Source: the human T2T-CHM13v2.0 reference genome, Homo sapiens
Reading direction: 5' to 3' (one strand)
Length of the DNA stretch: 64,000 nt
Assembly (NCBI RefSeq): GCF_009914755.1
Contig: NC_060948.1
A model generated the notes under the pieces. The model was not told where the DNA came from and did no database searches. It worked only from the letters and a program-made list of their open reading frames with translations. Below, piece after piece: positions 3,296 through 39,879 of the stretch (its first letter is position 1; every line of letters begins with the position of its first letter). Position numbers and translations under genes: made by a program.

Positions 3296-3973
3296 TATAT
3301 TTTTTATATGTGAATAAAGAACAATCAGTCCCAGTCGTCAGTGTGGCAAATTGCTAGGCAACAATGGAGGGAGGAACTTGGAAGTGGGGGCATGCCAGGG
3401 GCAATGAAGAAGACATAGTTGCCTCAGGCTGTGTGCAGGCAGCCTGAGCGGCCCTCCTCCTTGAGGCCTCAGTTTTCAGAGTAAGTGTCTGCTAGGTGAT
3501 ATCCAATAGCAGTAATCTCCTAGGTGGTCCCCACAACAAATCAGCCAGTGTCCCTGGAAGACATAGCTTAAGTCCCTAACCATCAGATCATCTGGAATTT
3601 CCAATCAGAAATGAGAGACCAACTGGAAATTCTCAGTCAAGGTCCAAACTAAAAGAATCACTGGCACACCCACCAAGGCTAAGACAATTTTTAAAAGAAT
3701 CATTTGGGTGCAACCGTGTATTTCTGTAAAACAAAATTACCTATTGTAAATGTTACTGTTTTTACTCATTATGTGTACGGTCCTATGATAGACAGCCCAA
3801 GGGGATTGTCACCTCAGAGTCCAAAACACCAGATGCTGATATCTTCAATTTCTATTTAGATTGAATTTAAACAAGCCAGCCAAACACTCTGCGGTGAAAC
3901 TCTCATGAAGACAAGTGATTGAAAAAGGGAAAAAACAAAACAAAACAAACAAACAAACAAAACAGTGTGTTCA

Positions 3974-4108
3974 GGGGAACTGGTTCATGCCTGTCATCCC
4001 TGCACTTTGGGATCCTGAGGGCACATGGATCCCTTGATCCCAGGCAATCCAGAACAGCCTTAGCAATACGATGAAACCTCCTCTGTAGAAAAATACAAAA
4101 ATAGCTGG
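3974..4108 (+). mobile_element. Old Alu monomer/left arm within the IGS paralog
   Basis: catgcctgtcatccctgcactttggga...aaaaatacaaaaatagctgg. Confidence 0.75.
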
Positions 4109-4244
4109 TTTCATAACCTTGACTCAAAATTAATAAATAAATAGATTAAAATTTAAAATAAAAACTTAAATGCTGTATTATCTTATTTTTGCTTCCTACC
4201 CTGAGAAGAACATAATACAGCTGGTCTCCGTCCGACTGTCTGTT

Positions 4245-4496
4245 TGTGACAGAGTCTCACTCTGTCACCCAGGCTGCAGTGCAGTGACACCATTATGGCT
4301 GACTGCAGCACCAACCTCCCCAGGCTTAAGTGAGTCTTCCACTTTGGCCTCCTGAGTAGCTGGGACCACACAGGAATGCACTTCGGGTTTTGGCTGTGTT
4401 TTCCAAGACTTGACTCGATCTCCTGCGCTAAAGCATGCCTACCTCCTCAGCCTCCCAAAGTGCTAAGGTTGCAGGTGTTACCCACTGCATCCGGCC
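4245..4496 (-). mobile_element. AluJ-like element within the IGS paralog
   Basis: gacagagtctcactctgtcacccaggctg...cctcccaaagtgct. Confidence 0.8.
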
Positions 4497-5064
4497 TGAC
4501 TTAATACATCTGGTCTCATTACAACTTGACCACATGCCCACAAAGAACTCAAATCAAGGGAGAATCAACAAGAGACTTTCAGCATTCTTTCCCTAAAGCG
4601 GGGAGGTGGATGGTGGCCGAATGTCCTGCACTTCTGTGGTTTTAGGTGGCCACGTTTAGAGGATAGATTTCAAATGTTTCTGTTAGAGGCACAAGCCACA
4701 GTCATTTGGAGCAATGTTTCTGACAGTGTCTTAAGGGCCAGGAAGGGCCAGGATCTGCCAAGGCCTGTGTTCCAGGGTGGGGTCGATGGAATCCAGGGTA
4801 GAAGGAGCCATCGGTCCTCACTGAGTTCTAGCCCTAGGCTCCACTGTGCAGACCAAGTCAGAAGGAACAATCCCTCGTCCTACATGCCACATGCATCTAC
4901 TGAACTTGAAAGTGGATCCATTTTCCAAACATGAGGTGACTCTTTGTTGGAAATGGATGACAAGGGGCCGGCCTTTCCGGAGTCGGTATGATAAAGAACT
5001 CATTCTGTGGCATAGAATGAGGTGTGGCTTGAATCTTGAATCTCCATTTAAAACCAATGAAGGT

Positions 5065-5345
5065 GGCCATGGACTGTGGCTCATGCCTGTCATCCCAGCA
5101 CTTTGGGAGGCTAAGGCAGGCAGATCACGAGGTCAGGATTGTGAGACCCGCCTAGCCAACATGGTGAAACCCCATCTCTACTAAAATTACAAAAATTAGT
5201 TGGGTGTGGTGGTGCATGCCTGTAATCCTAGCTACTCAGGAGGCTGAGGCAGGAGAATCACTTGAACCTGAAAGGCGGAGCCACTGTAACTCCAGCCTGG
5301 GGGACAGAGTGAGACTCCATCTCAGAAACAAACAAACAAACAAAG
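5065..5345 (+). mobile_element. AluS within the IGS paralog
   Basis: Alu body with small right-arm deletion and (AAAC)n tail. Confidence 0.9.
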
Positions 5346-6654
5346 CCAATGAATGTGTTTAACTCAAAGCGTCATGCCCAGGTCTATTGACAGGATATAT
5401 TGAGCACGCAGGGAAATGTTGTGGGGTGGGGTTGAAAATATTTTATGGCCTCAAGGAAGGGTTTGAGAGGTAGTCACACAAACCTGACAGCCTAAGGAAT
5501 CCCCTGCACTTAAGAAGCGATATGCACTTCTAGCCTGTAGCCACGCATGCGGGATAATTAGGCTCTCTGCAGAACTCCTCCTGAAATGGGCTCTCGCTCC
5601 ATTCAATAAAAATGGGAGAATCTGTTTCCTAGCATGCAGCCGCAGATGAACGATGATCCAGACACTCACATAAGGAGCGTGTCAGGCTCTACTCATACCG
5701 TGTGGTTTTGTAACCTCCAGCGTGTATGCTGGTGGGGGGTACTGTGGACAGAGGAGGGGAGAGAATGGCGGTGTCCGGCATGTGCTGGAGACATGGGACG
5801 TGGTTGGGTTGGTCAAAGTCTAGGGAACTCATCACCTGCCAGGACGTCTCACCTCCTGCTGTCCTCTCTACCCTACTCTCCACATCTTCACAGTGCAGTG
5901 GAGATGATGTAAGTGGAGTTTGCCATCACGTTGGACTTAAGCAGAGGAAGGCCGCCCTCCCAGGGGTTTCCCTGGAGTGGGTGCCTTGGGCAAGCTCACA
6001 AGGATGCCGATGGTGACAGTGAGAGGGATGTATGGTGGAGGCAGCAGGCCAATGTAGAGGTATGTATTTGACCTATTTGGGGGTGGTCAGCTTTGTGGAG
6101 TCCCATGCATCCTTCCAGAGAATCATTCAGCACTAGCAAGCATGGTCTCCAGGATCACAGTTCCCAGCAGAGGCACTTTTGTTCACACAGAATCCTGGGA
6201 AGGAAAGTTCTCAGCAGGCTTACACCTCCTATCCGAGAAGCTGAAACCACTTCTGGGAGGTTTTCCAAAGAGCCAGTGGTTCCACAAGGGGCCGTGGGAC
6301 TTCTGGAAATTGAGAGAAGTATTTGGAGATATATATTTTAGAAAGAATGGACAGAGCTTGGTCACGAGTTGTTTAGGACACAGGGGATACAGATTGAGAA
6401 AACCCTCCTAGCATCCTAGGTGAACAGAGGTACGATTTATTGAGACAGTAAGTCTGGGTCACAGCCGAGGCAAGGGAAAAGCAAACCCAGATTTTAAGGT
6501 TGCCTTTTTATTAGTGTGTAATATCCATGAGATATCCAAGCCCAGAAATGAACTCTCCAGTTCTGTAGTTTTCTGTATGGAAATCAGATCTGGGAGTTCT
6601 ACAGTTAATAATTCAGCCTTGGTAATAGATTAGATCTACCCGAGCCTATAGTAG

Positions 6655-7055
6655 AAAAAAGACAGGGAGGGAAGAATAGGACAGAGAAAGAAAGTTACAG
6701 AGAGAGAGAGAAAGTGAGAGAGGCAGACAGAGACAGACAGAGAGAGACAGAGACACAAAGAAAGGAAAGAGAAAAAGGAAAGACATAGAGAAAGAAAGAG
6801 AGAGACAGATGGACAGACAGGGAAAGAGACTGACAGAGAGAGACACAGACAGAAAGAGAGACAGAGAGAGAGACATGGATAAAGAAAGAATGACAGAGGA
6901 CAGAGAGACAGACTGAGAGAAACAGAGACAGGAAGAGAGAGACAGAAACAGAGAGAGACGGAGAGATAGATGGAGAGAAAGATAGACAAGGAAAGAGACA
7001 GAGTGAGAGAGACAGAGAGAGAGACAGAGACAGAGAGGGAGAGAGAGAGGAAGAG
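6655..7055. repeat. GA-rich (GAGACA-type) simple repeat, the IGS CT-rich tract
   Basis: About 400 bp of almost pure gagaga/gacaga. Confidence 0.95.
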
Positions 7056-8977
7056 GAATGGGGTACTCAAGAAATAATTACATGTATTGTATAATGCTCT
7101 GATGCCATAAACAGTGGCCAGAATATGATTGAAAACAAGAACATCAAAAAGAACAGCGGCAGCAGCAACACTCACTTGCAGATTTTTAGAAAGTAAGATG
7201 TTATGAACTATAGTTTACATCAACTGGCTCTCACTATACGTTGAGAGATTCACAAAAGTGCTAGTTAACAACAGAAGAAAACAGCGGCTAATATGTCCTT
7301 GGGAAAATATACATCTTCCTAAAAATTGGTGAATTCTACTTCAGCGGAAAATAAATAAATACGAAAAAGAAAAAAAACACAAACAAAACAAAACAAGCAA
7401 GCAAACAAGGGCCAAAGCATTGTCTCTGGAAATCTTAAACCAGCAAAATGCTTTGTAGAAAGCGGTTCTATTTTGGGCACATACTAATAAGGCCCAGGGT
7501 AGAGCGGTGACGCCCTTCCCATTTTGAAAATATGCTGGCCTGAGGGAGGAGAAAATTAAAAAAAAAAAAAAAAATCTTGATAAAAGGTGATTAAGACCCA
7601 GCCAGGATGGAACTTTCCTAGGGAGAGAGGCCTGAGGAACAATGGGGGAAAAAACTCATAACTGCAGTCGGTCCCGCCTGCCTGTCCGCTTGTCCACACG
7701 GGTCAAGCTCTATCCCATCGGCCCAAGCTGCCTCTCGGGAAGTGGGACAGTGCCGCCCCCATCTTTAAAAACTGTGGCCAATGAGTGAGGCCTGACGACC
7801 ACCAATGCAAATGTCAGCCTGGTGGGAATGAGATCACCAGCGAGCGGTGGGGGAAGGGGAGAGAAGAGGGAGGCACACCCTGGTGACTCTCGAACGTTTC
7901 CAAGCACAGTGGTAGGAGATGAGGGGGTTGGGGAAAACCCACCTAACTAACACTAAATTAAGGTAAAAGGGCTTGGGGGTCCGGGCGGCGACTTAAAAAT
8001 TAAAGTGACCGTACATAAAGCCAAAATGGAAGAGCCTATGAGCATTAAAGAAACCAACAGGTGAAGCAAAATAATATGCTGAGAAAAGAACAACAGGGAC
8101 CCCGCCAGGTCGGAGGTTCCCTAGGAAGAAGGGAGAGAGTGACGGGCCTCCAGAAGAGAGGGAGAGAAGCCAGTGGCCCCAGGCTCTGTGAAGTCGGCCA
8201 GACGTCCCTCCGTGCCACCTCGACTTTCAATAACAGTGGCCGCTAGGTGATGCCCGAAGACAACCGATGCTTGCAAGTGTCAGTCGGCACGGAAAAGAAA
8301 CGAATAATGAGTCTTTCTGTGTCAGGGTGGAGGTTGGGGATGGAGTGCGGAAGAGGCACACCCCAGTCACTGGCCTCTTCCAGATCCCTCTCACATCAGG
8401 TCGTTTCCGGGCCCAGGGAGAACTCCCAGGCAATTCCCACGACTAGCGACCAGAGCCCCACAGAGGACACAGCCTACGTTTCTGCCCATGGGATCTTCTG
8501 GAACTTCCATTCCCCCAGAGAGAAAAGAGGACCACGGGGGCACGGGTGTGCGGATGGAGGCTAGGGCTGGAGGTGGGACCTATCTAAGGCAGAAGTCCAG
8601 TCCATAGCGTTTCAGGGTATACTCCAGACCCACGACCTCAGAGTGGCAAATACCTGTCACAATGGAACAAAGTCCGTGAAATCCACGCTACCAGACACAG
8701 CATGGATTTCCCAGAGAGGACAGCTTACACCAAATTCCCTCCTGTCCTCAGGCCAGTTTTCACTCCTGAAGTACCCATTTCTCAGTCGTGTTCCGCAAAG
8801 TCCTCTCTGTCGTGAATCATTCAAAAATTTAGTTCAGTGAATCCCAGAGCATCCACATACGACCTCTAAGATCGGAGTCCGCACACTACACATCACTCCC
8901 CACAGTGTCTCTCCACGAGAACATCACCGCCGTATTAGCCTGGCGGCGATACAGTGCCATTTACTAGAAATCACTCA

Positions 8978-9250
8978 AGAGTTTCGCTCTTGTTGCCCAG
9001 GCTACAGTGTAGTGGCACAACCTGGGCTCACTGCAACCTCTGCCTCCCAGGTTCAACCGATTTTCCTGCCTCAGCCTCCTGAGTTCCTGGGATTATAGGC
9101 ATATGCCACCACGCGCCGTTAATTTTTTATTTTTAGTACAAGCACGTTTTCTCCATGTGGGTCTGGCTGGTTTCGAACTCCGACCTCAGGTGATCCGCCC
9201 ACCTCGGCCTCCCGACGTGCTAGGATTACAGGCATCAGCCACCGTGCCCC
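8978..9250 (-). mobile_element. AluSp-like element within the IGS paralog
   Basis: gagtttcgctcttgttgcccaggct...ttctccatgt...gattacaggc. Confidence 0.88.
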
Positions 9251-10110
9251 ACCATGTGTATAGAGTTTTATGCCACAATAATGAGCTTTCTTTCTCATTG
9301 CCTTCACAGGTGGTTTCACTAGGTCAGATTTTGTTTCACCGTTAATTTTTAAATTGAGGAGTTTGTCAGGGAAATACGAGATGTAGACTCCACAAGAGAC
9401 AGGGGGAAAAGCCTGAACATGCCCCTTCCATCCAAGTGCAGACCTGGCCTCTACCTCCCAAAATCATACACCGAGTGGGGAAGCCCAGCAATGCCTGTCT
9501 GTCTAGATTTCTCTCATCCTCTCTAAACATGGCACTCCTTCCTTTCGTGGAAGGTGCAGGGCCCTCCCCAGAACGGGAGTCTCAGGACCTACAGTCGAAC
9601 AAAACACACCCTGTGGAATTCAAGCATATACACGGACAATTTCCCCATCCTCTTGGGGCCTTCGTTCTGTAGACTCCCATGAAGACAGGTCCCAGAAACA
9701 TATCTGCCTATTCTTTTATTCTTCTGCCTCTGACGAGTTGAGGTTTCAGATGAAACTTCAGAGGGTGGAAGGCAAAGCACTCTCCCTGCTCCCATGTTTT
9801 TGTGAGCGGTGAAAAATGACAGTCTCCCAAGGCAAAAGTCTCCAGATACCCCTATCCTTTTCTCCCCTCCCAGTGGGATTCCGTGCATCTGACTTGGGAT
9901 GACACACGGTCTGCTAGCCACCGACAACAGCTGTGGTGACAGCACCGTCTAAAAGCCAAGAAGACAAAAAACAAAACTAACTTACTTAACTGAGTAATAA
10001 CGGGGAGAGGGGACTAAGGGAGTCAACCTATAGCAGAAATGACACACCATTCAGAACATAAGGGCTGCAGTGAAAGGCGGCAGAACATACACTTTTAAAG
10101 GCTGAAATCT

Positions 10111-10385
10111 CGGTGGCTCACGCCTGTCATGCCAGCACTCTGGGAGGGCCAGGAGACTTGAAGTTAGGAGTTCGAGACCAGCTTAGCCACCATGGCAAAA
10201 CCCCGTCTCTACTAAAAATACAAAAATTAGCCTGTCGTGGCTGTGTGCATCTGTAATCCCAGCTACTGAAGGCTGAAGCATGGGAATTGCTGGAACCCAG
10301 GAGGCAGAGGTTGCAGTGAGCCAAGATAGTGCCAATGCACCCCAGACTGGGCAGCAGAGCAAGAGACTCAGTCTCAGAAAAAAAG
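10111..10385 (+). mobile_element. Alu within the IGS paralog
   Basis: cggtggctcacgcctgtc...ggttgcagtgagccaag. Confidence 0.88.
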
Positions 10386-10589
10386 ACTGAAATAATCCCC
10401 TGCCTTCCTTCCCTTTTCCCCTTTAGAACCTACAGTTGTTTGCAGTTTCTGATCCCTTAAGTGGCAGAATATATTCCATGGGGCTAACTGTGGCTTTCTT
10501 GCATTGCCACTGAATGTCCCCTATAAGGCCGGTACCCCCTGCCTCAGGTCAAGGAGGTGGTGTTTCGTTTTGTTTCTCTCTCTCTCTTT

Positions 10590-10850
10590 CTCAAATTTTA
10601 TTTCTTGTTGAAGCATACATGTGCAAGATTGTCATATAGGTAACTTCTGACTGGGGGGTTCAGAGTGCAGATTATTTCATCACCTGGGTACTCAGCGCAA
10701 TACCGGACAGTTTTTGTGTTTTAATCTGAAACTATCTCTCCTACCATTCCTCCTCCCTCAAGTAAGGTCCCGTGTCTCTGGTCGCCCTCTTTCTGCCCAC
10801 ATGTTCTCATTATGTAGTTCCCACTTACAGATGAGAACACACCGTGTTTA
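10590..10850 (-). mobile_element. Old L1PA 3' UTR fragment within the IGS paralog
   Basis: acatgtgcaagattgtcatataggtaa...gattatttcatcacc...cccacttacagatgagaaca. Confidence 0.7.
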
Positions 10851-11329
10851 GTTTATTGTTGGTTTCATCTACGGTGATGGTGATAAAAGAAGCATGAGAG
10901 TAAATCGACCCTTAGGACACTCCCCTATGTCCTCATCACACACATCCCTCCCCGCACACACTCTCACCTCTACACCCCCTACTCAAGCCCAAGAAAGGAA
11001 GAAAGACATAAAGTAAAGTAAGAGGTCAGCCTCCAAGGTGATGGAGGCCGGGGATCTCAAAGGGTGAGCAAGCGGTGGGGGACAGAGGATGTTGTGGCCA
11101 AGCTAGAAAAGGTGGGAGACTGACTTTCTAGCTCCATCCCACACCCCAGGCTTTGGGTGGGGTGGCTCCTGCAAAAGCTTCTGAATGGAGAGAAGCCTGA
11201 AGCCATAGAAGTCACCAGCTAGGAATTCAGGAAGGGAATAAAGCTTTGTGCATGTGAATGGGGCTTTGTAATGCGGTGCTGTGGCTTCCAAGGTGATGCT
11301 CCTCGCCTCACACAGAGCAAGACTCCATC

Positions 11330-11487
11330 AAAAAAAGAAGAAAGAGAAGAAAGAAAGAAAGAAAGAAAGAAAGAGAGGAAGAAATGAAGGAAGGAAGGAA
11401 GGAAGGAAGGAAGGAAGGAAGGAAGGAAGGAAGGAAGGAAGGAAAGAAAGAAAGAGAGAGAAAGAAAAGAAAAGAAAGAAAAAAAAT
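11330..11487 (+). repeat. (GAAA)n/(GGAA)n purine microsatellite; 14 consecutive GGAA at 11389-11444
   Basis: Direct count from the sequence. Confidence 0.95.
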
Positions 11488-17519: not shown

Positions 17520-21550
<4,031 letters not shown>

Positions 21551-21556
21551 CACCTG

Positions 21557-23534
21557 AGGGCAGGTGGCGCAGGCCTGTAATCCCAACACTCTGGGAGGCC
21601 AAGGTGTTCAGATAACTTGAGATTAAGAATTCAGGACAAGCCTGGCCCCATTTCTACTAAAAATACAAAACTTAGCCAGGCATGGTTGTCCATGTCTTTA
21701 ATCCCAGCTATTCAGGAGGCTGAAGCAGGAGAATTGCCTTAACCTGGGAGGTGGAGGTTGCAGTGAGCCGAGATTGTGCCACTGCACTTCGGGTGACAGA
21801 GCAAGACTCTGTCTTAAAAATAAATAAGACATCTAACCTACCTTCAAACCACAAAACAGTTTCTTTCACATTAAGATATTATAAGATAAAGGTGTTGAAA
21901 TTAAGACAATTTCCATGAATACTCACCTAGACAGAATCAATTATTGGCCACCAGCCAAGAAGAAAAATATACAAATCATAAACAAAATAGGCGTAACGTT
22001 TATACAAGCAAACAAACACTTAGATAATTATATTGAAAAAGGAAGTAGGGCTGATTCATAGTTGACTTTTGCCTCACACTGTATTAAGATGTACAGAGTT
22101 GACAATTGTCATACAAAATTATAATATATAAATTAAAACTAAAAACAGTAAACTGATGTAAGGTGGCCTACCCTAAAAAATGAAACAAACAGACACAAAA
22201 TTGCAAACAAAGTTAAAATTAACATTAACCCCCAAAATTCTGATTTGAATGCTGCAATTCAAAACCATAATAAATAGGTAGAAGCTAGAAACACAATTGA
22301 TGTGAGGCAGCCTACTCTGAAAAATACAGAAATATAAAATACAAAACTTAATGAAGAGCAACTTTAACCCATAAAATCCTCAATAAACAGAGAAAAAATC
22401 TAGATAACTACAATTTTCAACTCTAACTGTGCATCCATGAAAAGCATGAATTTTTAATTGTTTGATACAGTTAAGGCAACAACATTTCAAAGAAAACATA
22501 TTATAATTATTCATAAAGCTTTGATGAGAAAGTTTTAAAAAATAAGCATTTAAGTAATACTAGAGAAACTTCTAAATTATGCTACTGATACATTGATATA
22601 TTGCTGCTTTGTTTTTCCTTTATTTTTTATTTTTTATTTATTTTTTTTTTTTTGAGACGGAGTTTTACTCTTGTTTCCCAGGCTGGAGGGCAATGACATG
22701 ATCTCAGCTCACCACAACCTCCGCCTCCCAGGTTCAAGCTATTCTCCTGCCTCAGCCTCCTGAGTAGCTGGAATTAGAGGCATGTGCCAACACGCTCAGC
22801 TAATTTTGTATTTTTAGTAGAGACGGGGTTTCTCCATGTTGGTCAGGCTGCTTGTCTCAAACTTCTGACCTCAGATGATCCGCCCGGCTTGGCCTCCCAA
22901 AGTGCTGGGATTACAGGCATTAGCCACCATGCCCGGCCCATTGCTGCTTGTCTTACAAAGTGGTGAGGCTGTAATCTAGCCTTTAGAAGAAAAGTCTTAC
23001 ATTTCTAAATACAATAACTATATATATTTTAAATACAGTATAAAAATTGATATATAAAGTAATACTGGGAATAAGTTGTGCTACAATTCAGGTAAAAATT
23101 GAGGAAACTGGAAGAAAATGCTACTAATCACATTGTTCCTAAAGTCAATGAAACATACAAGACAAATATTTTAATAAATTATATAATTTATATATAACAT
23201 ATACATTTGAGAATGTTGTATTATTTTATTTATGTATTTATTTTTTGAGGTGGAGTCTCACTCTGCTGCCCAGGCTGTTGTGCAGTGGAAGGATCTTGGC
23301 TCACTGCAACCACTTGAAACTCTGTCTCCCAGTTTCAAGTGGTTCTCTTTCCTCAGCCTCCCGAGTAACTATGATTACAGGTGCATGCCACCACACCTGG
23401 CCAATTGTTGTACTTTTAGTAGAGTTGGAGTTTCATTATGTTGGCCAGGCTGGTCTCAAACTCCTGGCCTCGTGATCTGCCCACCTCTGCCTCCCAAAGT
23501 GCTGGGATTACATGTGTGAGCCACCATGCCAGGC
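21557..23534. mobile_element. Alus at 21557-21826 (+), 22615-22938 (-) and 23220-23534 (-) in AT-rich ZNF-intron-like DNA
   Basis: Alu bodies; the 22615 element has TSD attgctgctt. Confidence 0.88.
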
Positions 23535-24002
23535 CTTGAACATACTATTGTAGAACTTCTGAAACTAAGATTACAGACAAATTACAGACATATGACAATT
23601 CAGAAAGTGAAAACGCTGTCATGATATTCTTGTTGTTAAAGAAGACAGAATCACAAAATAATAAGTGAGAAATAAGGTAATAATTGGAAATTCAATGTAT
23701 GTACAGCAATGTTCTAATTTCCCCTATGGGAAAAGTTTTTGTAAGGAATCCATAAAATGAGTACATACAATAAACCACCCTACAATAGACACTGTTGGCA
23801 TATAGAGTTTAAATTTTTAAGATTAGGTCTTGATAAGAAAAAATAATTCTCCATAAAACTTTTTTTTATATTTAACAAGATACTTTTGCACATAAAGATT
23901 TTCCATCAAATTTTTTGTGGAATTATGTTTTAAACCTTCATAGGATATGAAATTATAAAGCAGAAAACATGTGTCTTCTCTCTCTGGTGTTCCTGGAATT
24001 TC

Positions 24003-26032
<2,030 letters not shown>

Positions 26033-26049
26033 TGTTCTTGGAATTTCTA

Positions 26050-26553
26050 AACCAATTCCCAATGCCTCCCAATGCCTTCACAACTCCCTTCACACACTTT
26101 TGACTTGATGCACCACATATTTATTAAAAAATTGCATAACGTAGAGGTCTCCAGAAATGTGCACAGATTTCCCCAGATTCCCAAAATTAATGAACACTAA
26201 TCAGATCATGTAGGTTCTTACAGATTCTGGGAGGACTTTGGTTTTCAGTATGAATGCACTGGAAGATTCTGGGAGGGAGAAAAGAAGCCATAGAAGATTG
26301 AAGAGCATAGTAAGCATGGGACAGGAACATGTTTCTCTGTGACAGCAAGAAAAATAAAATTAGGCTTTTCTAAAACAATTTCCATTGCAACAGAGATGAC
26401 CAAACCCTATTTAAACTCTGTCTTTCTCTGTGACCTTTGGACCTCTCCCATGTGTTACCTGCTCATTTATTTTCACCTTGCTTTGTGTATGGCTGTTGCC
26501 TCCTCTCTTTTCACACTGCAGGAATTTTTTCTTTGCTACAGACTCTCCACCAG
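26050..26553 (-). pseudogene. KRAB zinc-finger gene remnant: degenerate KRAB-B exon (26481-26553) plus the start of the following intron
   Basis: Minus-strand LVESL*QRKNSCSVKREEATAIHK resembles KRAB-B LITCLEQ.KEPWN.KR.E.VA..P. It is followed by the ZNF91-family intron motif gagaggtccaaaggtca...aatggaaattgtttt...aagcct. Confidence 0.65.
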
Positions 26554-26599
26554 AGTTTTTTTTTTTTTTTTCCCCTTCCCCGCAATAGTAAGTGGGCTC

Positions 26600-26989
26600 A
26601 CCGGAAAATGCCCAACTTTCAGCATCTTCCTCAGGAGAGAATTAACGCTGTAGAGTTATGTGTTGAAATGTTTGTCTTTTTGAGATATTGCCTAATGACT
26701 AGATTCTGTCTTTCCTGACATGGAGTGCTGAAGGACATGATGGACTCATACAGATGACAGTTGTGTCTGATGACAAGAAAGAAAATTGCAGCACTAGAGA
26801 AACTGCAATACCACAGACAGTCAACTGGGGAAGAAAATAGCTAATCAATCTAAAAACAATGAAACAAATTCTCTTTAACTGAGAAATACACAAAGATCCA
26901 GAGAAGACATATCTGAGAATGCATCTGTGAAGCACCCAGAATCTATAGCCTGGCTGATTGCTGTCAATATCACCCTTTACTAAGCCAGT

Positions 26990-27034
<45 letters not shown>

Positions 27035-28325
27035 TCTTGAGAAAGAGTTTTGCTTTGTCGCCCAGGCTGGAGTGCAGTGGAGTGATCTCAGCTCACTGCA
27101 ACCTCCATCTCGCGGGTTCAAGTGATTCTATTGTCTCAGTCTCCTGAGTGGCTGGGACGAGAGGTGCACCACAACGCCCAGCTAATTTTTTTGTATTTTC
27201 AGTAGAGACGGGCTTTGCTATGTTAGCCAGGCTGGTCTCAAACTCCTGGCCTCCAGTAATCTGCCCATCTCAGCTGCCCAAAGTGCTGGGATTACAGGCA
27301 TGAGCTACCGTGCCCAGCCGTGCCAGGCTTTAAATACTAGATTTGATGGATATTTTGTAATTTTCCAGATCTTATAAAAAAAATTACAAGGCATACGGAG
27401 AAGGTGGAAAATATACTTCACTGGAAGAAACAGAATAAATATCCAGAAGTTGACTCTTAAGAAATGAAGATTTTTGCATATCTGATAAAGAATTAAAAAT
27501 AATTAAGCATTCTCAGTGAACAAAAATGAAACAAAAATAGAAAATTGAATAACATTTAAAAATAATAAATGACCGAAATGTGATATCAACAAAGAGATGA
27601 AACCTTTTTTCTAAAAACCCAACAGAAATTGTGGCATTGAAGGATCCAATAACTGGCATTTGCAAATTCACTGCAGAGACACAACAGCAAACATTGGAGC
27701 AAAAAAAGAATCAGGAAATTAAATATATATTATTCACAAATATTTAGGCCTGGAAACTAACTTTTGAAAAAAATGGAAGAAATAAGGGTTAAATATGAGA
27801 CTTACTGGACACTATCAAGTAGACCAATATATTCAGAGAAAGAGTCTTATGAAAAGAATATGGGAAGAAAATGACATAAATGTTATCTGGGAGAAAAAGA
27901 GGGCATGCTGAAACCTTACACATATCAGCAATGAAACAAAAAATCCTAACAACCAAGAATAATGGACCTGGAAAAAACTGTACTTCAAAAATTAGAAAAA
28001 AATAAAGCCTTTCAAAGTTTAAAATAAAAAAACTAAGGTTGCTTACTACTAGAATAACCCTAGAAAAAAATGCAAAAGACAGTCAATTATGTTGAAACAT
28101 TAAATGATGCTGGACAGCATCATAAAATGATATGAAAATGTAAAGCTCTCTGTTAATATAAATATATACACAGATACAAAATTTGCTATTGTTATAATAA
28201 TGGTGCATACAATTCTTAAATCTCTGTGAAAATGCATACAATATATAGAGATATAATTTGTAACATTAATAATAGAGTGGGGGAAGTAAAAATGTATATA
28301 TTTTGTATGCTGTTAACTTGAAGTT
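26600..28325 (+). mobile_element. Old L1M 5'UTR/ORF1 remnant with an antisense Alu at 26989-27319 ((TTG)n tail)
   Basis: aaaattacaaggcatac..., tgagacttactggacactatcaagtagaccaatat, aagaataatggacctggaaaaaactgtacttcaaaa. Confidence 0.72.
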
Positions 28326-28675
28326 GAAGGCAAAAGCTGTTTGCCCTGGGGACCTTAGCACTGGGCAAGGGATGAGGCAAAGCTGCCATTTTGTCTACCT
28401 TGGTTGTTCCATCTCCCCCTACTCTGCATAGGGATTTTTCTTGGTCTTCAGGAATAGTCAGTGTGGCCAGACTCTGTTCTGCACACACAGTCAGGTGTAG
28501 GTAGGTGTGGCATGTATAGAGGGGGCCTGGGATTCTAAAAATAATTAAATATGCAAAAAGTGGAAATCTGAGAATTTTGGGCATGATTCTCAGGACTTTG
28601 GGCTGGGGAAACAGTAAGACCTTGCTTCCATCCATGTGGTTTCTCATCAGAGTTGTTGGGGCCTTCTCCCTGCAG

Positions 28676-28847
28676 TTGTCCCTTAAGGAGATGTTGCAGG
28701 AGATTTAGCCGGTGCTGATGGTCCATGAAGAAATGTGTCACTGCACCTCCTTCTCACTGCACCTGGTTAGCAACATGCCAAACCACTTCCCAGGGCGGCA
28801 AAACAGTGAGGAGCTGCAGGAGGGCTCAGGGCTGTGTATGAGGGAAG
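28676..28847 (+). pseudogene. CLUHP: CLUH pseudo-exon
   Basis: LSLKEMLQEI*PVLMVHEEMCHCTSFSLHLVSNMPNHF..ELQEGSGL vs CLUH [46 protein letters not shown]. Confidence 0.88.
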
Positions 28848-29732
28848 GCTGGTTTGGAAGTTGGGTAGACTGCCTTGGGGAGGGCCCCAAAAAAGAAGGG
28901 CCAGGCAGCACTTCCCCAGTCCTCAGAGGTCTTTGTGTCACAGATAAGCATGTGAATGTAAGAACAGAGTTGTAATTCTAAAAAATTCAGGCAGTACAAA
29001 GCCAGGCTTGATATCAGCCCAATCAAATTCTATAAAAATAAATGATGTCTTAGAAAAAAAAAAACTTAAAAAGCTTCACAGTATTTGAGTGGGGAAATCT
29101 GTCCAGTGCAGCACCAACTGCTGTGGTGAGATTCACCTGGTTGTAAAGCAAAATCTCTCATGTATTCATGTTCTCTGGGGAAAAGCCACTTATGTTCCCA
29201 GGGTCTACCTGCTTGCTAAGAGCAATTGTGGAAAAGAATTGTAGCTCAATGGTGCCCATAGTTGATCACAGGAACTTTCCTCTTTCCCCAAACCGTCACC
29301 ATTAAACTTCAGTGAAACACACACTGGAAGACCGTCTGAAGTAGGAGGTCCTGGGGAGTCCTCAGCACACCCCTTCATGAGGGCTGCCCAAAAAGGCAGC
29401 TCTAAACGCTCCTTCAACCCAAGACACTAGTGCAGAAAAAGCAGTTAGCCCTGTCGGCTCAAGACCCACGTGTGCTTCAGAGGCATTTGGCAGGAGATTC
29501 TTTGTAAGAAATGATCCCTGCCTACTAGCAGACAGGAGTGTGTGTTTGTGTGAGTGTGTGTGTGTTGAAATTAGAACCCCACCTTATGTGTTCATTATGG
29601 AATTTGAAAATGGAAGCCTAAAGTTGAAAATTAAAATCACCCATGAAAGCATCTTGCAAACTATTTTCTGTGCTAGATGCGATGTTTTAGGATACAAGGC
29701 CCTGGTAACATCCTACTCCTTCTCCCTGAAAG

Positions 29733-29873
29733 AGCTACACACACTACTCAAGGCCTGCTTCCACATGAACCACGTCCTAGAGCAGCTTAAGAGCCTGAAC
29801 CCATCTGCTGCCTTCAGCAGGGCTGACTAAAGCTGCTTGTTCTTCCCGAGCATATTCTCCAATGACCTGAGAG
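29733..29873 (+). pseudogene. CLUHP: CLUH pseudo-exon
   Basis: HMNHVLEQLKSLNPSAAFSRAD* vs [22 protein letters not shown]; ag/gt flanks. Confidence 0.85.
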
Positions 29874-30056
29874 GTGGAGGAGACATTGGGGCCAGGATTG
29901 AAAAGAGGGAAGGGGAGCATGGAAGCCAGAGGCTGAGGACCAGGTTTTCTCACCTGGAGGGGTCTGGCCTAGCGGCACTCAAACCAGGGTCAAATTTAGG
30001 TGGAGACAGCTGGCCTTGGGTTGCCCTGTGCTGACCACCAGCCTCGAGTTCCTCAA

Positions 30057-30630
30057 ACAGTAGGAGTGAAAGAATGGCTTGGAGATGAGCCTCATTGACT
30101 GTTTGCCACCTGAGTACATCTTGCCAGGGTCCCAAGAGGGACCATTGTGTCTCCAGAGCCATGACTGGAAGGTGGAACTCCCAAAGGGGGCAAAGAAGAG
30201 GGTCCTTGGTGAAGTGAAGAGCTTATTTCTACTTGACCATTCCTGAAGGGCTTTAGTGCCTAAAAGTGCCCAGCATGAGCAGCTGGAACCCACTTCCTAG
30301 AAACTGCAAGATGCAAGGGGACCTCATGTACCTCTTTGTAATTACAGACAAGGACCCGAAGGGCCCCATCACTGCATCCACATGGGACTTTTACTGGATC
30401 CAGTAAGTCCCTGCCAGCTCCCCACAGGCTCCTGGTATGTCACTTGTTCTGGGCCTGTGGACAGACAACCAGGACACTTGCTCAGTGCCCACTTCCTCCT
30501 TGTAGGCCTACAGCCTATTGCTCAACCCCAAGCTCACCAGCCTTTGCTTCCTAAGCCATTCGCCACTGGAGCTGCTCAAGTACCACAGCCTGAACTTCAC
30601 AAAACACTTTGTCATGCCATGAAAGAAAAG
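30057..30630 (+). pseudogene. CLUHP: Three CLUH pseudo-exons (30057-30171, 30249-30402, 30506-30630)
   Basis: [24 protein letters not shown]|gt; [37 protein letters not shown]|gtaag; FLSHSPLELL..NFTKHF..KK|gtaag. Confidence 0.92.
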
Positions 30631-30634
30631 GTAA

Positions 30635-30979
30635 GGCTGCCGGGCATGGTGGCTCGTGCCTGTAATCCCAACACTTTGGAAGGCCAAGGAGGGCAGATCA
30701 TGAGGTCAGGAGTTTGAGACCAGCCTGGCCAATATGGTGAAACTCCATCTCTACTAAAAATGCAAAAAATGGCTGGGCATGGTGATGCATGCCCTGTAGA
30801 CACAGCTGCTCAGAGACTGAGGCAGGAGAATTCCTTGAACCCGGGAGGTGAAGGTTGCAGTGAGCTGAGATCACATTGATTCACTCCAGTCTGGGTGACA
30901 GAGTGAGACTTCTTCTCAAAAAATAAAATAAAATAATAAAATAAAATAAAATAAAATAAAATAGTAAAATAAAATAAAA
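30635..30979 (+). mobile_element. AluS with (AAAAT)n tail, inserted just after a CLUH donor site
   Basis: Full Alu body. Confidence 0.92.
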
Positions 30980-31272
30980 GTCACTGTTTCATCTCCCCCG
31001 ACTTGTGTCATGTTACAGGGGCTTATTGGATGAACCAGCCAGGCCAAACTCCAGAGTTTCCGCCCAAACAATCTGTCCCCACTGCTTGAGTCCCCTCTAG
31101 GGAGCTGTCAGTGTGACAGGGGGCACCTCTGGAAGTGGTGGCCATTTGCTTCTATCTGACCTCAGGGCAGCTTCTCAGGGCAAGAAGATCCTAGAGCAGA
31201 TGGAAGTCTCAGAGAAGAAGCCTATGTCCAGGTTCTTGGCTCGGTCAGCTCTGTATCTCCCTCTCTCCTGTT

Positions 31273-31690
31273 TGTGCCATGGACTGTGTGCACACAGAGA
31301 ATGCCCGCACCTTGAGGCTGAACTATGAGGAGAACCTTCCTGAACAGGGGCAGGCAGACTCATCCTGCCCTCAGTGGGAACCCCCTTCCTCTGGGTACTA
31401 GACAGAATTCTGTGCACTTTCCTGGAGGCTCCATGCTGGATCTGTTCATTTGGAAGTTTGAGGCTGTCCATAGGGAGGTAACAAAAGAGACTTCTCCTCC
31501 GTCTGGAAAAAAAAAGAAAGAAAGAAAAGGTAGACTTCTCAGAGCAAGTTGTGGGGCACAGGCTGAGCCCTTGCCTCCCTCCCTGGTCCCTCTATGGTCC
31601 CAGGACTGAAACAAGGAGCTGCAGACAATGAGGGAACTGCTCTGCAAGAACGGCCTGAGTGGCTGCTTCAAGAAAGAACCACAGTGAAAG
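31273..31690 (+). pseudogene. CLUHP: CLUH pseudo-exon remnants (31273-31335, 31601-31690)
   Basis: AMDCVHTENARTLRLNYEE vs AMDCVRAEDAYTSRLGYEE; QD*NKELQTMRELLCKN vs RDWNEELQTTRELPRKN. Confidence 0.85.
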
Positions 31691-32148
31691 TGCCTACAGC
31701 CCCTAGTGACTGAGTGGCAGCCTCAGGCCCACCTACCATCTGCAGGCAGGTTTTCTTGCTGACAGAATGAAAGCAAGGAAAGCAGGAATGAGCCCAGCCC
31801 TCTCAGTCACCCTGAAGGCTGCCTGGGGTTCCCTGCAAGGCCTTCTAGCCTTCTGCTTCTTGGCAAACGACCCAAGCATCTTTTTCTGGCCTTCGAGAAT
31901 TTGATTCTCTGGAAGAAGACCCTACTTTTCACTAGGCTTAGTGTCCAGGGCCAGCCAGCTCCCCACCTTCAGTAACAACCAATGGTCTCTCACCTGGGCA
32001 CACACTGCCCAACTTTGGCCCTTCTAAGGCAGGAGCTCATTTGTCTTGCAGGTTCAGCTTGCTAGGGCTTAAAAGTTATCATTGCTGTTATTAAGATAGA
32101 GAAATTAGGGGGAAAGAGTTGTCTTAAGAAATTTCCCCTAATCTTACC

Positions 32149-33235
32149 TTGGAGATCATCGGCACAGGTGACAGCTTAGGCAAGGCTGCTGAGGATGTTG
32201 GGGGAGAGGACCCAGCCTGTCCAGCCAGCTGGTCCTTGCCAGAGGTGGCTCATGACCCATCCCCTGAGAGAAGCAGGCAGACATCCCAGCAAGGAGCTGG
32301 GGTGTATAGATCAGGGCAGCCCAGGCACACTGATGGTGGCTTGGCACTACCTCCCATCAAGAGGTTTCACCACAGCTGACCCTTGGATCCAGGGGGTGAT
32401 TTACAACATGTGCAAGGCAGTCAGCTCCATCAGCTGTACAGCCTTCAACATTCACTTCACCTTGGACATCTCACCAGAAAGCATTGAGGACTGGCCAACG
32501 CAGAAGCTCTGCAAAGTGAGATAGAGCATCGTTGGGTGGGGGATCTGGGGCCTGTCTGCTCATCTGATAATTGCTTCCTGAGGGTGTGCTCTGCAACCAA
32601 ACAGTGACTGTTTTCATGTTTGTCTGTTTATTTATCAGTTTTAAATATCCTAATATTTCATTTATAGTAGTTTCTGTCTCGTATTTGTGTATTGGTAAAA
32701 ATTGTATTAGAAGAAAGAGGGCTTAAGACAACAATATTTTAGAAGATCTTAAGGGGGCATAGACTTTCATGTCAAAACAGCTACTGTTGACCTCTTTTTG
32801 CTACCTTTGTGCAAAGTATACACAGAAAGTGCAGCCAGAGGTGATGAGGCCAAGTGTGTAGAGCAGAGCTACCTGGGCTTGCTTGCTGGTCGGCAGTCAG
32901 GTGGACTCTGGCTGTGAGGTGGTGCCCACCTGGATCTACACCCCCCACCCCCTCTCCTGAGTAACCAACACAAGGTAGTGCTAATTAGTGGGCGAGTGAT
33001 AGGCATCGGGCACCCCAATACCATCTGGGAAGAATTGAATGCCATCTGGGCTGGGGTTGTGGGGGGGGCAGGGGCTGTGGCTGCATTGGCTTGTTATGGC
33101 ACCACCCACAGATGCATCTGCACTGTGCTTCTTCTCCAGCAGTCAGCTGCCCATGGTCCTGAGCCTGTCATGCCATGCCTGCTACCTCACACTGCTTGTG
33201 TTTGAAAAAAACATCCTGAGATGGTGCTGCTGGAT
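32149..33235 (+). pseudogene. CLUHP: CLUH pseudo-exon remnants (32149-32179, 32376-32515, 32957-33035, 33112-33235)
   Basis: DPWIQGVIYNMCKAVSSISCTAFNIHF vs [50 protein letters not shown] vs [52 protein letters not shown] (TPR region). Confidence 0.9.
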
Positions 33236-35330
33236 GTGACCACTGGCAAGAGGACAGCACCTTTGTCCTAGGGGATTAGGAGCTGACCAGATTGCTCCTG
33301 ACTGCCTCTAGAACAAGTGGGGGCTGGTGCTGCAATTAACGATGCCTCCAAAAAGATATGTTTGCAATGGCTCAATGAATATTTGATGCAGAGGCCTACA
33401 TGAAGACACATGAATGGAGTGTGTGGACATCAGTTAGCAGCTGAGAAACAGGTGCCTCTCAGGCCTCATCCTCCAACAACTGTGGAACGTGCCCAAGCCA
33501 TGAGTATATACACCTGGAGTGTATACATCTGGCTGCTGCTTTTGCTGCCACTATCCCCAGGCTCAATATGGCTTAAAATCTGGATTTTAAATAGCAAAGA
33601 TAGGAGGCTTTTCTGTGTCCTGGAATAGGAAGCCAGAGATCTGTGTAGGGCTGGCACTGGGTGCACATTAGTTTTGTGACATGATGAGAGCTGCAGTGGT
33701 TTTGTTAATCGTGATAGGCCTGGGCTGGTTGCAGCTCTGAGTGATGGGCAGGGAGTCAGCAATGGTGGTCATGTAGACATCCATGTGCCCAACTCTGGCC
33801 CGCCTGCCCTCAGACATAGCAAGAGGCACCACCACAGGCCCTGACTTGCCTCCCTACTCCTTGCATGCCAGATGGGAATACCTGAAAGCTACAATCTGAA
33901 TGTATTCTTCTGCCATTTTGACCTGAGCTGCCTAACGCACAGTGTGTGGGGGGGCGGGGGGGAGGTGAAGGGCCTGGGGGAAAGCAGGGCTGGATCATGG
34001 ATCCTGGTGGAAATTTAGAGATACAGGAGTGGTTGTCACCTCTGTGTGGAGCCCAGCTCCCTTCCTGATCCTTGCCACACAGCCCCGTCTGCAGAGACCA
34101 GGTTTGGCAAGTTTGGGGATCCCTAAGACCCTGGGCTACTCCCTGTCAGTCCTGTCTGTGCTCTTTCCCTTTCCTGTTGGCAGAGCCCAACATGGAGGAG
34201 GAGGCTGCCGCCCTCTGAGCCTGAGGAAGCTGTGTCTGACTGGGGCTTCTGTCTGGGGTTTTGCAAAGAGCTACTTTTGAATATGGCCTGTTCAGATACC
34301 TTGTTTCAAAGGAAGTGAGGGTGAACTGGCAAGTGCAGCAACTCCACACTTGATAAATAACTTTTTCTTGTCTCTAAACCATCACATTTTCATTTCACAT
34401 TGGAATAAAGTAAGTGAAACCTGCCACACCAGCCTCGCCCGTGTGTTCTGTAACCCAGACTCATTTGGTTGTGAGGGCTGTTGTCAGTAATCTTATGAAA
34501 AGAAGAATATGTATAAATTAGATCAAAGGTAAAATTATGCTTATAATGTCATTTGTGTGGGTGATAAGAGGGTGGACTAACAGGCACTCAGGTGGAGTTT
34601 ACTCACCTGTCGTTTACCAGACTCATGACTGTAGCTCTGGTGAACATCACCTGACACTGGTGACAGAAGAGAAAAGGCCAGTGTGAAGGCTAGGTGGGGG
34701 AGAGGTGCCAGGCTGTGGGGCTAGGTTTTAGAGTCATCTGGACACTCTTGGAGAGCTAATGAGATGGGAGGAAGGCAGTCCCCCAGGTGAACCTTACTAC
34801 CGGAGCCTATGGGCTCGCGGTGGGGGAGGTGTGTGGGGGTGGCCTGTCCCTATGAGAGGAAGAGTTTACAGCTTTTACAGCTGGTGGCTGATGCTCAGCA
34901 ATCCCTCTGCAGAGCAGGCAGGTCATCAGCCATGTGTATAGCTGAATGTCTTTTGAAGTGTTTAGAGAGTGCTCTATGTCTTAGAAATTCCTTTCCCTTG
35001 GCCTTGTCCAGTGAACACGGCTCACATGGCTAACACCACTTCTTGAGATGCCTTCACCATGCAAAGCTGAGAATGGATTGGGTTTAGTTACCATTGTGCC
35101 TCCTCCTCACCTGAGAGGCCTATTTTCTTTGGTTGATTCCTTAAGTGTATTAGTGCTGTCAGTCACCTTTGGACAACTCAAATGACAAGCGGCTGTTGTT
35201 TCATAAAGAAAAAAAAAGAAAATGAAGTCTTTGAATGTGAAACCCTCATTTTCTCCTCTCCTTCTCTTAGGTGAAAGATTTTATTTTTAAAAAAAGAGTA
35301 CACAGTCGTATCCCAGCAGGTGTAGTGTGA

Positions 35331-35868
<538 letters not shown>

Positions 35869-38906: not shown

Positions 38907-38943
<37 letters not shown>
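36720..38943 (+). mobile_element. 5'-truncated L1PA7/8-like element (ORF2 3' part, 3'UTR, poly(A)); Alus at 37078-37380 (-), 37748-38040 (+) and 38753-38831
   Basis: agaccaatggaacagaacaga, aaccacaatgagataccatctc, gataggtgcagcaaaccaccatggcac...atgtatcccagaacttaa followed by an A-tail. Confidence 0.92.
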
Positions 38944-38944
<1 letters not shown>

Positions 38945-38959
38945 CAGAAAGGCACTAAG

Positions 38960-39290: not shown

Positions 39291-39505
39291 AGTATGGGGG
39301 TTTGGCATCCCAAGAGAAGAGAGCAGCCTGTAAAACCGGCAGGACTGGCCTCTCCACGGTCAGCTCCAAGTCTCCTGTGCAGCGTGGCTGTCAGTCCCCT
39401 GTGGCCACAAGATGGTGGCTGGGCCAGCAGTGGGGATCCCTGCGTCCCACCTCGTGCAGTCCTGTCCTCTCCCTGAGTGGCGTTCTGCTGTGCTCCCACA
39501 GCCCT

Positions 39506-39845: not shown

Positions 39846-39879
39846 GTCCAACCTCTTTTTGGTTATAGAAAAGGGATGA

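What the first reader, a model, noticed from the sequence alone, without database searches (positions are those of the whole stretch)
4960..5050. Empty (pre-integration) site of the rDNA CDC27 pseudogene
The minus strand reads cacacctcattctatgcc-ACAGAATGAGTTCTTT-atcataccgactccggaaagg (core at 4993-5008). As I recall modern human IGS, these two flanks are separated by the CDC27 retrocopy, bounded by duplicated acaga..gacttcttt. Here there is one copy of that target and no CDC27 sequence. The CDC27 pseudogene is reported in ape but not Old World monkey rDNA, so this copy would have left the array before that insertion was fixed.
Basis: partly seen in the sequence, partly recalled or inferred. 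Interest (0 to 1): 0.8.

Follow-up and report, generated by a model that had tools for sequence, protein, structure and literature searches.

The report
Unoccupied CDC27-retrocopy site in old rDNA-spacer copy
This stretch of the human Y chromosome is a very old, decayed copy of the spacer between ribosomal RNA genes that still shows the spacer as it was before a CDC27 gene copy and two Alu elements jumped into it, which makes it a tidy molecular fossil but not a functional element.

Summary
Window 11407..3316 (minus strand) is collinear with about 21 kb of the rDNA intergenic spacer (IGS) of this genome, at about 75% identity. At 4993-5008 two alignments to the IGS overlap by exactly 16 bp. 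In the rDNA these two flanks are 3,803 bp apart. The intervening DNA is the antisense CDC27 processed pseudogene, which starts with a T-run and is bounded by two copies of the 16-mer. The window holds no CDC27 sequence and no poly(A) remnant.

The window copy is one of 9 copies (7 distinct) with the empty site, on chrY, chr12 and chr8. Ten other dispersed copies carry the pseudogene. On a tree the filled copies and the rDNA form one group, set apart from all empty copies with 100/100 support.

Polarity comes from a shared Alu beside the site. It is full-length in the empty copies and carries two deletions in the rDNA and the filled copies. Two further IGS Alus are also cleanly absent from the empty copies.

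So this copy split from the array lineage well before the insertion, at roughly 2.4 times its age. This is an ordinary relic, modestly new, and shows no sign of function.

The parts
3316..11407 (-). Ancient dispersed copy of the rDNA intergenic spacer (family A, subgroup A1). It is 8.1 kb and collinear with about 21.3 kb of the modern IGS (G000:C13:6499800-6521106).
   Evidence: Chain of 11 low-multiplicity blastn blocks, 69-87% identity. The weighted mean is 74.5% over 6,526 aligned columns. rRNA genes lie on the + strand of C13, so the window copy is inverted.
4993..5008 (-). Single, unoccupied copy of the 16-bp target (ACAGAATGAGTTCTTT) that is duplicated around the CDC27 processed pseudogene in the rDNA. 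The inferred first-strand nick lies between 4993 and 4992 on the minus strand (TCTTT/AT).
   Evidence: The left-flank and right-flank alignments overlap on these 16 bases.
5009..5061 (-). Left flank of the target site, equal to IGS just upstream of the left target-site duplication.
   Evidence: 87% identity over 69 columns including the target. Alignment shown.
4438..4992 (-). Right flank of the target site, equal to IGS just downstream of the right target-site duplication.
   Evidence: 76% identity over 603 columns including the target, E 2e-124.
5061..5345 (+). Alu orthologous to the truncated IGS Alu at C13:6514639-6514762. It has the same insertion point and orientation and is flanked by TTCATTGG. 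It is near full-length here. It lacks the 29-bp and roughly 100-bp deletions shared by the rDNA and the CDC27-bearing copies, and it carries a 22-bp deletion specific to subgroup A1.
   Evidence: Eight-sequence alignment. Alu intervals.
4140..4164 (-). A/T-rich 25-mer bounded by two unoccupied Alu target sites (junctions 4165|4164 and 4140|4139). In the rDNA, antisense Alus sit at both junctions (C13:6519494-6519779 and 6519935-6520191).
   Evidence: Alignment of the rDNA with 4 family-A copies; both Alus are absent in 4 of 4. Coordinates.
9335..11407 (-). One copy of the IGS 'long repeat' unit. Its pieces each match two places about 4.5-5.7 kb apart in the modern IGS (9335-9583 to big 24507-24760 and 30211-30468; 10500-11407 to big 19800-20822 and 24762-25290).
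   Evidence: Paired blastn hits. It is read as the state before the tandem duplication, but a later collapse was not excluded.

Best explanation
Window 3316-11407 is a neutral, decaying paralogue of the rDNA intergenic spacer. It separated from the rDNA-array lineage early in primate evolution. It now sits, as part of a larger duplicated block, in both arms of a Y-chromosome palindrome.

Later, in the array lineage, a CDC27 mRNA was reverse-transcribed into the spacer by the L1 machinery. The rRNA-sense strand was nicked at TCTTT/AT, the T-run primed on the poly(A) tail, and a staggered second cut 16 bp upstream produced the 16-bp target-site duplication. Concerted evolution then spread the insertion through all arrays.

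Because the Y copy had already left, bases 4993-5008 keep the target as a single uninterrupted copy. The same copy also keeps the state before two Alu insertions and before two deletions in a neighbouring Alu, and probably before the long-repeat duplication.

Shown here: the homology, the exact junctions, the identity of the insert, the absence of remnants, the tree split and the Alu polarity. Inferred: the L1 mechanism (from the target-site duplication, the T-run and the intron-less insert), the direction array-to-genome, and the dating.
For: 1. Junctions. The two IGS alignments overlap on exactly 4993-5008. The rDNA has target copy, 14 T, a 3,803-bp insert, then the second target copy.

2. 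Insert identity. It is CDC27 and antisense to the rRNA: PDB phmmer E 9e-142 to human CDC27 301-569 with no intron gaps, Pfam ANAPC3 6e-17 and TPR_1 5e-14, and rRNA genes on the + strand. A passage of PMC12579671 says the same about the strand.

3. No remnants. 60 of 60 blastn hits of the insert in the window fall in insert 711-1053, which is its internal Alu. The best tblastn E-value is 0.82.

4. The empty state is shared. 9 of 41 listed genome matches span the site. In 7 of 7 distinct copies the flank alignments overlap by exactly 16 bp around a single 16-mer.

5. Filled copies exist. 10 of 10 dispersed copies whose match starts at the target carry the pseudogene.

6. Tree. On an ML tree of 654 columns, rDNA plus the 10 filled copies are split from the 7 empty copies with 100/100 support and a branch of 0.059. 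K2P distances are 0.186 for A-rDNA and 0.085 for B-rDNA; transversions alone give 0.060 and 0.025.

7. Polarity without an outgroup. The orthologous Alu is near full-length in the 4 A copies aligned, but has a 29-bp and a roughly 100-bp deletion in the rDNA and the 2 B copies aligned.

8. Two further Alus of the IGS are absent from 4 of 4 A copies, leaving clean sites. The first of them is present in B.

9. Position of the insertion on the stem. I counted by hand from the alignments, over 246 CDC27 residues. 39 changes are specific to the rDNA pseudogene, 27 to a B copy, and only 4 are shared. The insertion therefore lies near the B/rDNA node, and most of the 0.059 stem precedes it.
Against: - No outgroup IGS (macaque, marmoset) could be examined. 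The root rests on Alu polarity and on roughly equal path lengths.
- Identity is low (74.5% over 6,526 columns), so parts of the wider alignment are uncertain.
- Rates differ between regions. B-rDNA identity is about 86-89% in the pseudogene but p-distance is 0.080 in the flanks, so the age ratio is rough.
- The 4 shared residue changes are few, and I counted them by hand using two different B copies.
- The target TCTTT/AT is only a variant of the L1 endonuclease consensus, which I give from memory.
- The direction of transfer (array to genome) is not proven here.
Confidence: 0.88

Rival explanations
1. Secondary loss. The copy left the array carrying the CDC27 pseudogene, and the insert was later removed precisely by recombination between the two 16-bp target copies, restoring a single copy.
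For: By sequence alone, a precise excision between direct repeats would leave the same junction as seen.
Against: All 7 distinct empty copies, which are as far apart from each other (K2P 0.12-0.21) as from the rDNA, share the empty state. The same copies are also ancestral for four other characters: two Alu-internal deletions and two Alu insertions. They lie outside the rDNA+B clade with 100/100 support. By my hand count, only about 9% (4 of 43) of the change in the rDNA pseudogene since insertion is shared with B. That leaves very little time for a split after the insertion but before B left.
Confidence: 0.03
2. Reverse direction. A family-A-like genomic segment is the original, and the rDNA spacer captured a copy of it. 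The site would still be pre-integration, but the copy never 'left the array'.
For: No outgroup rDNA was examined here, so the direction is inferred. The window copy holds no 45S-derived sequence: Rfam finds no rRNA in the window, and no low-multiplicity blastn hits fall in the coding part of the unit.
Against: The homology runs collinearly through about 21 kb of spacer, from roughly 7.6 kb past the 45S end to roughly 4.7 kb before the promoter (these offsets use recalled lengths of the 45S parts). Subgroups A1 and A2 are truncated differently on the left, as expected for fragments of a larger source. Agrawal and Ganley report conserved IGS regions that map to marmoset rDNA (passage), and Robicheau et al. 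describe degraded rDNA units dispersed outside arrays (abstract).
Confidence: 0.05
3. Chance resemblance or assembly artefact at 4960-5050.
For: None found.
Against: E-values are 2e-124 and 2e-17 for the flanks. The collinear chain runs for 8 kb. The copy in the other palindrome arm is identical at 3,701 of 3,701 bases. Six other distinct copies lie on chr12, chr8 and chrY.
Confidence: 0.01

Closest known systems
CDC27 processed pseudogene of the human rDNA intergenic spacer. Gonzalez et al. 1993 is known to me only as cited in PMC6281188 and PMC11373518. The feature is annotated in KY962518 according to a passage of bioRxiv 10.64898/2026.03.22.713381.
   Same: The window holds the exact target and flanks of that insertion. 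The target-site duplication, poly(A) side and antisense orientation seen here fit what the papers say: in apes not monkeys, and on the strand opposite the pre-rRNA.
   Different: The window is the unoccupied state, outside the arrays, in the same genome. The published absence is in monkey rDNA, not in a human paralogue.
Dispersed, degraded rDNA-like sequence outside the arrays (Robicheau et al. 2017, PMC5381670; abstract and two passages seen).
   Same: It is a multi-kb, highly diverged IGS-derived sequence on a chromosome without an rDNA array.
   Different: A term search of that paper's main text finds no mention of cdc27, chromosome Y, HSAY or HSA12. Its supplements were not examined. The window copy has no 45S part. 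It lies in a Yq palindrome rather than next to a centromere.
CDC27P pseudogene loci: eleven CDC27 pseudogenes on chromosomes 2, 14, 20, 21, 22 and Y (passage of PMC7941923). These correspond to family B here.
   Same: They are also IGS fragments copied out of the array and dispersed in pericentromeric, acrocentric and Y DNA. They share the right flank with the window at 81-83% identity.
   Different: They left after the insertion and carry the pseudogene with both target copies. They are about 87% identical to the rDNA, against about 75% for the window copy.
Presence/absence (empty-site) analysis of retroposon insertions, the standard method in retroposon systematics. PMC9223172 was seen only as a search listing.
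   Same: The logic is the same: an empty site with one target copy against a filled site with a target-site duplication, treated as an essentially homoplasy-free character.
   Different: Here it is applied between paralogues within one genome, with the tandem array as one 'taxon'.

Membership tests
Unoccupied (pre-integration) site of an L1-mediated processed-pseudogene insertion | Both flanks are homologous and collinear with the flanks of the filled site. | tested here: met
   Window 4993-5061 and 4438-5008 align to the two sides of the rDNA insert, within an 8-kb collinear chain.
Unoccupied (pre-integration) site of an L1-mediated processed-pseudogene insertion | The filled site has a direct target-site duplication, and the empty site has exactly one copy with nothing between the flanks. 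| tested here: met
   The rDNA has ACAGAGAGACTTCTTT and ACAGAATGACTTCTTT. The window has one ACAGAATGAGTTCTTT. The alignments overlap by exactly 16 bp in 7 of 7 distinct empty copies.
Unoccupied (pre-integration) site of an L1-mediated processed-pseudogene insertion | The insert is an intron-less copy of an mRNA with a poly(A) tail next to one target copy. | tested here: met
   A run of 14 T follows the left target copy. The antisense translation is contiguous with CDC27 residues 301-569 and with the N-terminal ANAPC3 domain. That the parent gene has introns is established knowledge and was not tested here.
Unoccupied (pre-integration) site of an L1-mediated processed-pseudogene insertion | The target resembles the L1 endonuclease nick site (TTTT/AA; consensus recalled). 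| tested here: inconclusive
   The nick is inferred at TCTTT/AT. This is a T-rich variant, not the consensus.
Unoccupied (pre-integration) site of an L1-mediated processed-pseudogene insertion | The empty copy diverged before the insertion, rather than by excision. | tested here: met
   The tree split has 100/100 support. The empty copies hold the ancestral state at two Alu deletions and two Alu insertions. No outgroup species was available, so support is strong but not final.
Dispersed rDNA-derived (IGS) pseudo-sequence outside the nucleolar organiser arrays | Multi-kb collinear homology to the rDNA unit. | tested here: met
   Window 11407..3316 matches C13 unit positions 19800..41106 of my 67-kb stretch.
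Dispersed rDNA-derived (IGS) pseudo-sequence outside the nucleolar organiser arrays | Location outside an array, not tandemly repeated at unit length. | tested here: met
   The window is chrY:19.16 Mb (hub annotation). The only other chrY copies are the palindrome twin and a diverged copy 73 kb away with its own twin.
Dispersed rDNA-derived (IGS) pseudo-sequence outside the nucleolar organiser arrays | Origin from the array (direction of transfer). | not testable with these tools
   This needs rDNA of monkeys or strepsirrhines. Only this genome is held.

The most novel reading that the evidence does not exclude
The nine family-A copies (chrY, chr12, chr8) together are a fossil of the primate rDNA spacer from about 2.4 times the age of the CDC27 insertion. 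That is roughly 45-70 million years if the insertion is 20-30 million years old. The ratio is rough, the calibration dates are recalled, and shared dimeric Alus cap the age.

On this reading, the ancestral stretch was about 8 kb where the modern one is about 21 kb. The growth came after the split through datable steps: the long-repeat duplication with its [TC]n blocks, the CDC27 retrocopy, and at least two Alus.

It would also show that the spacer evolves about as fast inside the array as dead copies do outside it. The path lengths from the common node are 0.094 for the rDNA against 0.09-0.14 for the dead copies.

This would give a within-genome outgroup for reconstructing how the mammalian spacer became large.
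Probability: 0.45. Interest if true: 0.45.

Novelty: new member of a known kind. Interest (0 to 1): 0.3.

Why it matters
It gives an internal, base-exact confirmation of how and where the CDC27 retrocopy entered the human rDNA spacer: the target, the 16-bp duplication, the poly(A) side and the strand.

It also shows that the human genome keeps older snapshots of the spacer. From these, the order of spacer-expanding events can be read without other species. The events are Alu insertions, Alu-internal deletions, the retrocopy, and probably the long-repeat duplication.

That bears on why mammalian spacers are large and how fast they turn over (PMC11373518, discussion passage).

It has no evident functional or medical meaning. 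I found no description of the empty-site paralogues in 5 literature searches, but subscription papers such as Gonzalez et al. 1993 could not be read.

Tried and rejected
- Searching the genome with the 3.8-kb insert to find the parent CDC27 gene failed. All 39 scored matches were identical rDNA units on C13.
I sent no smaller request. Instead I polarised pseudogene changes at the protein level against solved CDC27 chains. One search, on the downstream TPR frame, printed only designed-TPR alignments and added nothing to the count.
- Supplement search of Agrawal and Ganley for Alu numbering gave 0 occurrences in the 4 files held. Their .xls tables could not be read, so the IGS Alus could not be matched to their Aluhuman numbers or to presence in macaque.
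- Rfam on the window found no rRNA fragment, only mir-1324.
- Earlier findings of this scan were not open.
The full-length-versus-deleted state of the shared Alu was used instead.
- Chance or artefact was rejected.

Full report
**What is at the coordinates**

The 16-mer occurs once in the window. A search of the window's own genome with 4700-5400 (minus strand) listed 41 matches:
- 9 span the site. These are the window itself, an identical copy at C24:18.556 Mb on the other strand, four on C12, one on C8, and a second pair on C24.
- 26 begin at query base 393 or 394, which is the first base of the 16-mer or the base before it. They are 16 tandem units on C13 spaced 46,970 bp apart, plus 10 dispersed places.
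- 6 are Alu-only matches.

**Comparison with the rDNA**

I took 67 kb of the C13 array (called 'big' below, big 1 = C13:6480001). It carries 18S, 5.8S and the start of 28S on the + strand.

blastn aligns window 4993-5061 to big 34896-34828 (87%) and window 4438-5008 to big 39284-38700 (76%, E 2e-124). Both alignments include the 16 bases 4993-5008.

The rDNA left junction reads ...CATTCCGTGCC ACAGAGAGACTTCTTT, followed by 14 T and then the insert. The right junction reads ...GAGTCCGAG ACAGAATGACTTCTTT ATCCTGC.... So the rDNA holds 3,803 bp between two copies of a 16-bp target, and the window holds one copy.

**The insert is the CDC27 processed pseudogene**

- Its reverse-strand translation matches human CDC27 residues 301-569 in one ungapped stretch, E 9e-142.
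- Other frames match Pfam ANAPC3 (6e-17) and TPR_1 (5e-14).
- The T-run at the left end and the antisense reading frames put the retrocopy opposite to the rRNA. A passage of PMC12579671 states the same.
- The insert contains one Alu, at insert 711-1053.

No CDC27 sequence is in the window. All 60 blastn hits of the insert fall within that Alu, and tblastn with three pseudogene frames gives nothing better than E 0.82.

**Wider anatomy**

The site lies inside an 8.1-kb stretch (window 11407..3316, minus strand) that is collinear with big 19800..41106. That is 21.3 kb of spacer, aligned in 11 blocks of 69-87% identity. The weighted mean is 74.5% over 6,526 columns.

Using recalled lengths of the 45S parts and the rRNA positions, this runs from roughly 7.6 kb past the 45S end to roughly 4.7 kb before the promoter.

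The window has no rRNA-derived sequence.

**Two families of dispersed copies**

- **Family A (empty site).** The window and its twin, which is identical at 3,701 of 3,701 bases; C24:19.236 Mb and its twin, with 1 mismatch in 3,551; C12 at 34.09, 34.15, 38.00 and 38.09 Mb; and C8 at 46.4 Mb. I left the two twins out of the later counts. In 7 of 7 distinct copies the flank alignments overlap by exactly 16 bp around a single 16-mer, with consensus ACAGAATGACTTCTTT.
- **Family B (filled site).** These 10 copies are on C2, C13, C14 (two), C15, C20 (three), C21 and C24:10.5 Mb. All 10 of 10 carry the pseudogene and both target copies and are about 87% identical to the rDNA over 5-6 kb. Five of the 10 have about 1.2 kb extra near the right end of the insert. 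They fit the CDC27 pseudogenes listed for chromosomes 2, 14, 20, 21, 22 and Y in PMC7941923 (passage).

**Order of events**

*Distances and tree.* I used 665 flank columns, counting the target once.

| Comparison | K2P | Transversions only |
|---|---|---|
| A to rDNA | 0.186 | 0.060 |
| B to rDNA | 0.085 | 0.025 |
| A to B | 0.195 | 0.068 |
| Within A | 0.175 | 0.054 |

The ML tree splits rDNA plus all B from all A with 100/100 support on a branch of 0.059. A falls into two deep subgroups:
- A1: the window, C12 34.15 Mb and C12 38.00 Mb.
- A2: C8, C12 34.09 Mb, C12 38.09 Mb and C24 19.236 Mb.

*Polarity from structure.*
- The Alu just left of the site is orthologous in rDNA, A and B. It has the same orientation and junctions and is flanked by TTCATTGG.
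- That Alu is near full-length in the 4 A copies aligned. In the rDNA and the 2 B copies aligned it has a 29-bp and a roughly 100-bp deletion. A full-length Alu is the ancestral state, so rDNA plus B share derived states that A lacks.
- Two antisense Alus of the spacer (big 39494-39779 and 39935-40191) are absent from 4 of 4 A copies aligned, leaving clean A/T-rich sites. The first of these Alus is present in B.

Family A is therefore ancestral at five structural characters, one of which is the CDC27 insertion.

**Where on the stem the insertion falls**

I compared pseudogene translations with solved CDC27 chains: the rDNA pseudogene, a B copy for residues 318-451, and another B copy for residues 456-567. 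I counted by hand over 246 residues. 39 changes are private to the rDNA, 27 are private to B, and 4 are shared (I367M, S393R, M469R, N480H).

So B left the array after only about 9% (4 of 43) of the rDNA pseudogene's change since insertion. Scaled to the flank tree, this is about 0.004 of the 0.059 stem. Most of the stem therefore precedes the insertion.

If the rate along the rDNA lineage was steady and the root lies near the central node, family A split at about 2.4 times the age of the insertion (0.094 against about 0.039). Path lengths from that node are 0.09-0.14 on all sides, which fits a root there.

The pseudogene is in apes but not monkeys (PMC6281188 passage). With recalled split dates of about 20-30 million years, this gives very roughly 45-70 million years. 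The shared dimeric Alu caps the age. This dating is inference.

**Mechanism**

The filled site has the marks of L1-mediated retroposition:
- a 16-bp target-site duplication;
- a poly(A) remnant abutting one copy of it;
- an intron-less cDNA reaching from the 5' region (the ANAPC3 domain) to the 3' end.

The rRNA-sense strand would have been nicked at TCTTT/AT, between window bases 4993 and 4992 on the minus strand. This is a T-rich variant of the recalled TTTT/AA consensus.

**Weaknesses**

- Identity is low.
- Rates differ between the pseudogene and the flanks.
- The shared-change count is small and was made by hand.

**Literature**

Five searches and passages of PMC6281188, PMC11373518, PMC5381670, PMC7941923, PMC12579671 and one preprint were seen. 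None describes empty-site paralogues. A term search of the main text of Robicheau et al. finds no cdc27 or Y-chromosome mention. Gonzalez et al. 1993 and the .xls supplements of PMC6281188 could not be read and may bear on this.

**Verdict**

The feature is a neutral relic: a new member of the known class of dispersed rDNA-derived sequence, carrying a textbook empty retroposition site. Interest is modest.

Noticed in passing
window 31339-31428 (+): Rfam match to the mir-1324 microRNA precursor family (78.1 bits, gathering score 70, full model length). It lies about 0.7 kb past the annotated CLUHP2 pseudogene.
   Followed up: no
window 4123-4175 (-): Two more unoccupied retroposon sites. The rDNA spacer has antisense Alus at both ends of a 25-base A/T-rich stretch that is uninterrupted here and in 3 other family-A copies.
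   Followed up: yes
window 9335-11407 (-): Only one copy of the spacer's long-repeat unit is present. Each piece matches two places 4.5-5.7 kb apart in the modern spacer, which suggests the copy predates the LR1/LR2 tandem duplication and the [TC]n blocks. Collapse after copying was not excluded.
   Followed up: partly
G000:C24:19235746-19236296 (about 13.7 kb beyond the window's end) and its twin at C24:18482742-18483292: A second empty-site spacer copy (subgroup A2) sits in the same palindrome arm, in the opposite orientation. Its K2P distance from the window copy is 0.21, as far as either is from the rDNA.
   Followed up: partly
L018, L019, L022, L026, L027 (family B loci on C2, C15, C20, C24, C14): Five of 10 CDC27-bearing dispersed copies have about 1.2 kb of extra sequence between rDNA positions big 38668 and 38674, close to the 5' end of the pseudogene. 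Its nature was not examined.
   Followed up: no
G000:C13:5.81-7.60 Mb: rDNA units are spaced exactly 46,970 bp apart. All 39 of 39 scored matches are 100% identical over the 3.8-kb pseudogene. This uniformity is what masks the parent CDC27 gene in genome searches.
   Followed up: no
window 5061-5345: The shared Alu carries a 22-bp deletion found only in subgroup A1 (the window, C12 34.15 Mb and C12 38.00 Mb). In subgroup A2 the homology to the spacer breaks at the Alu's 3' end.
   Followed up: partly
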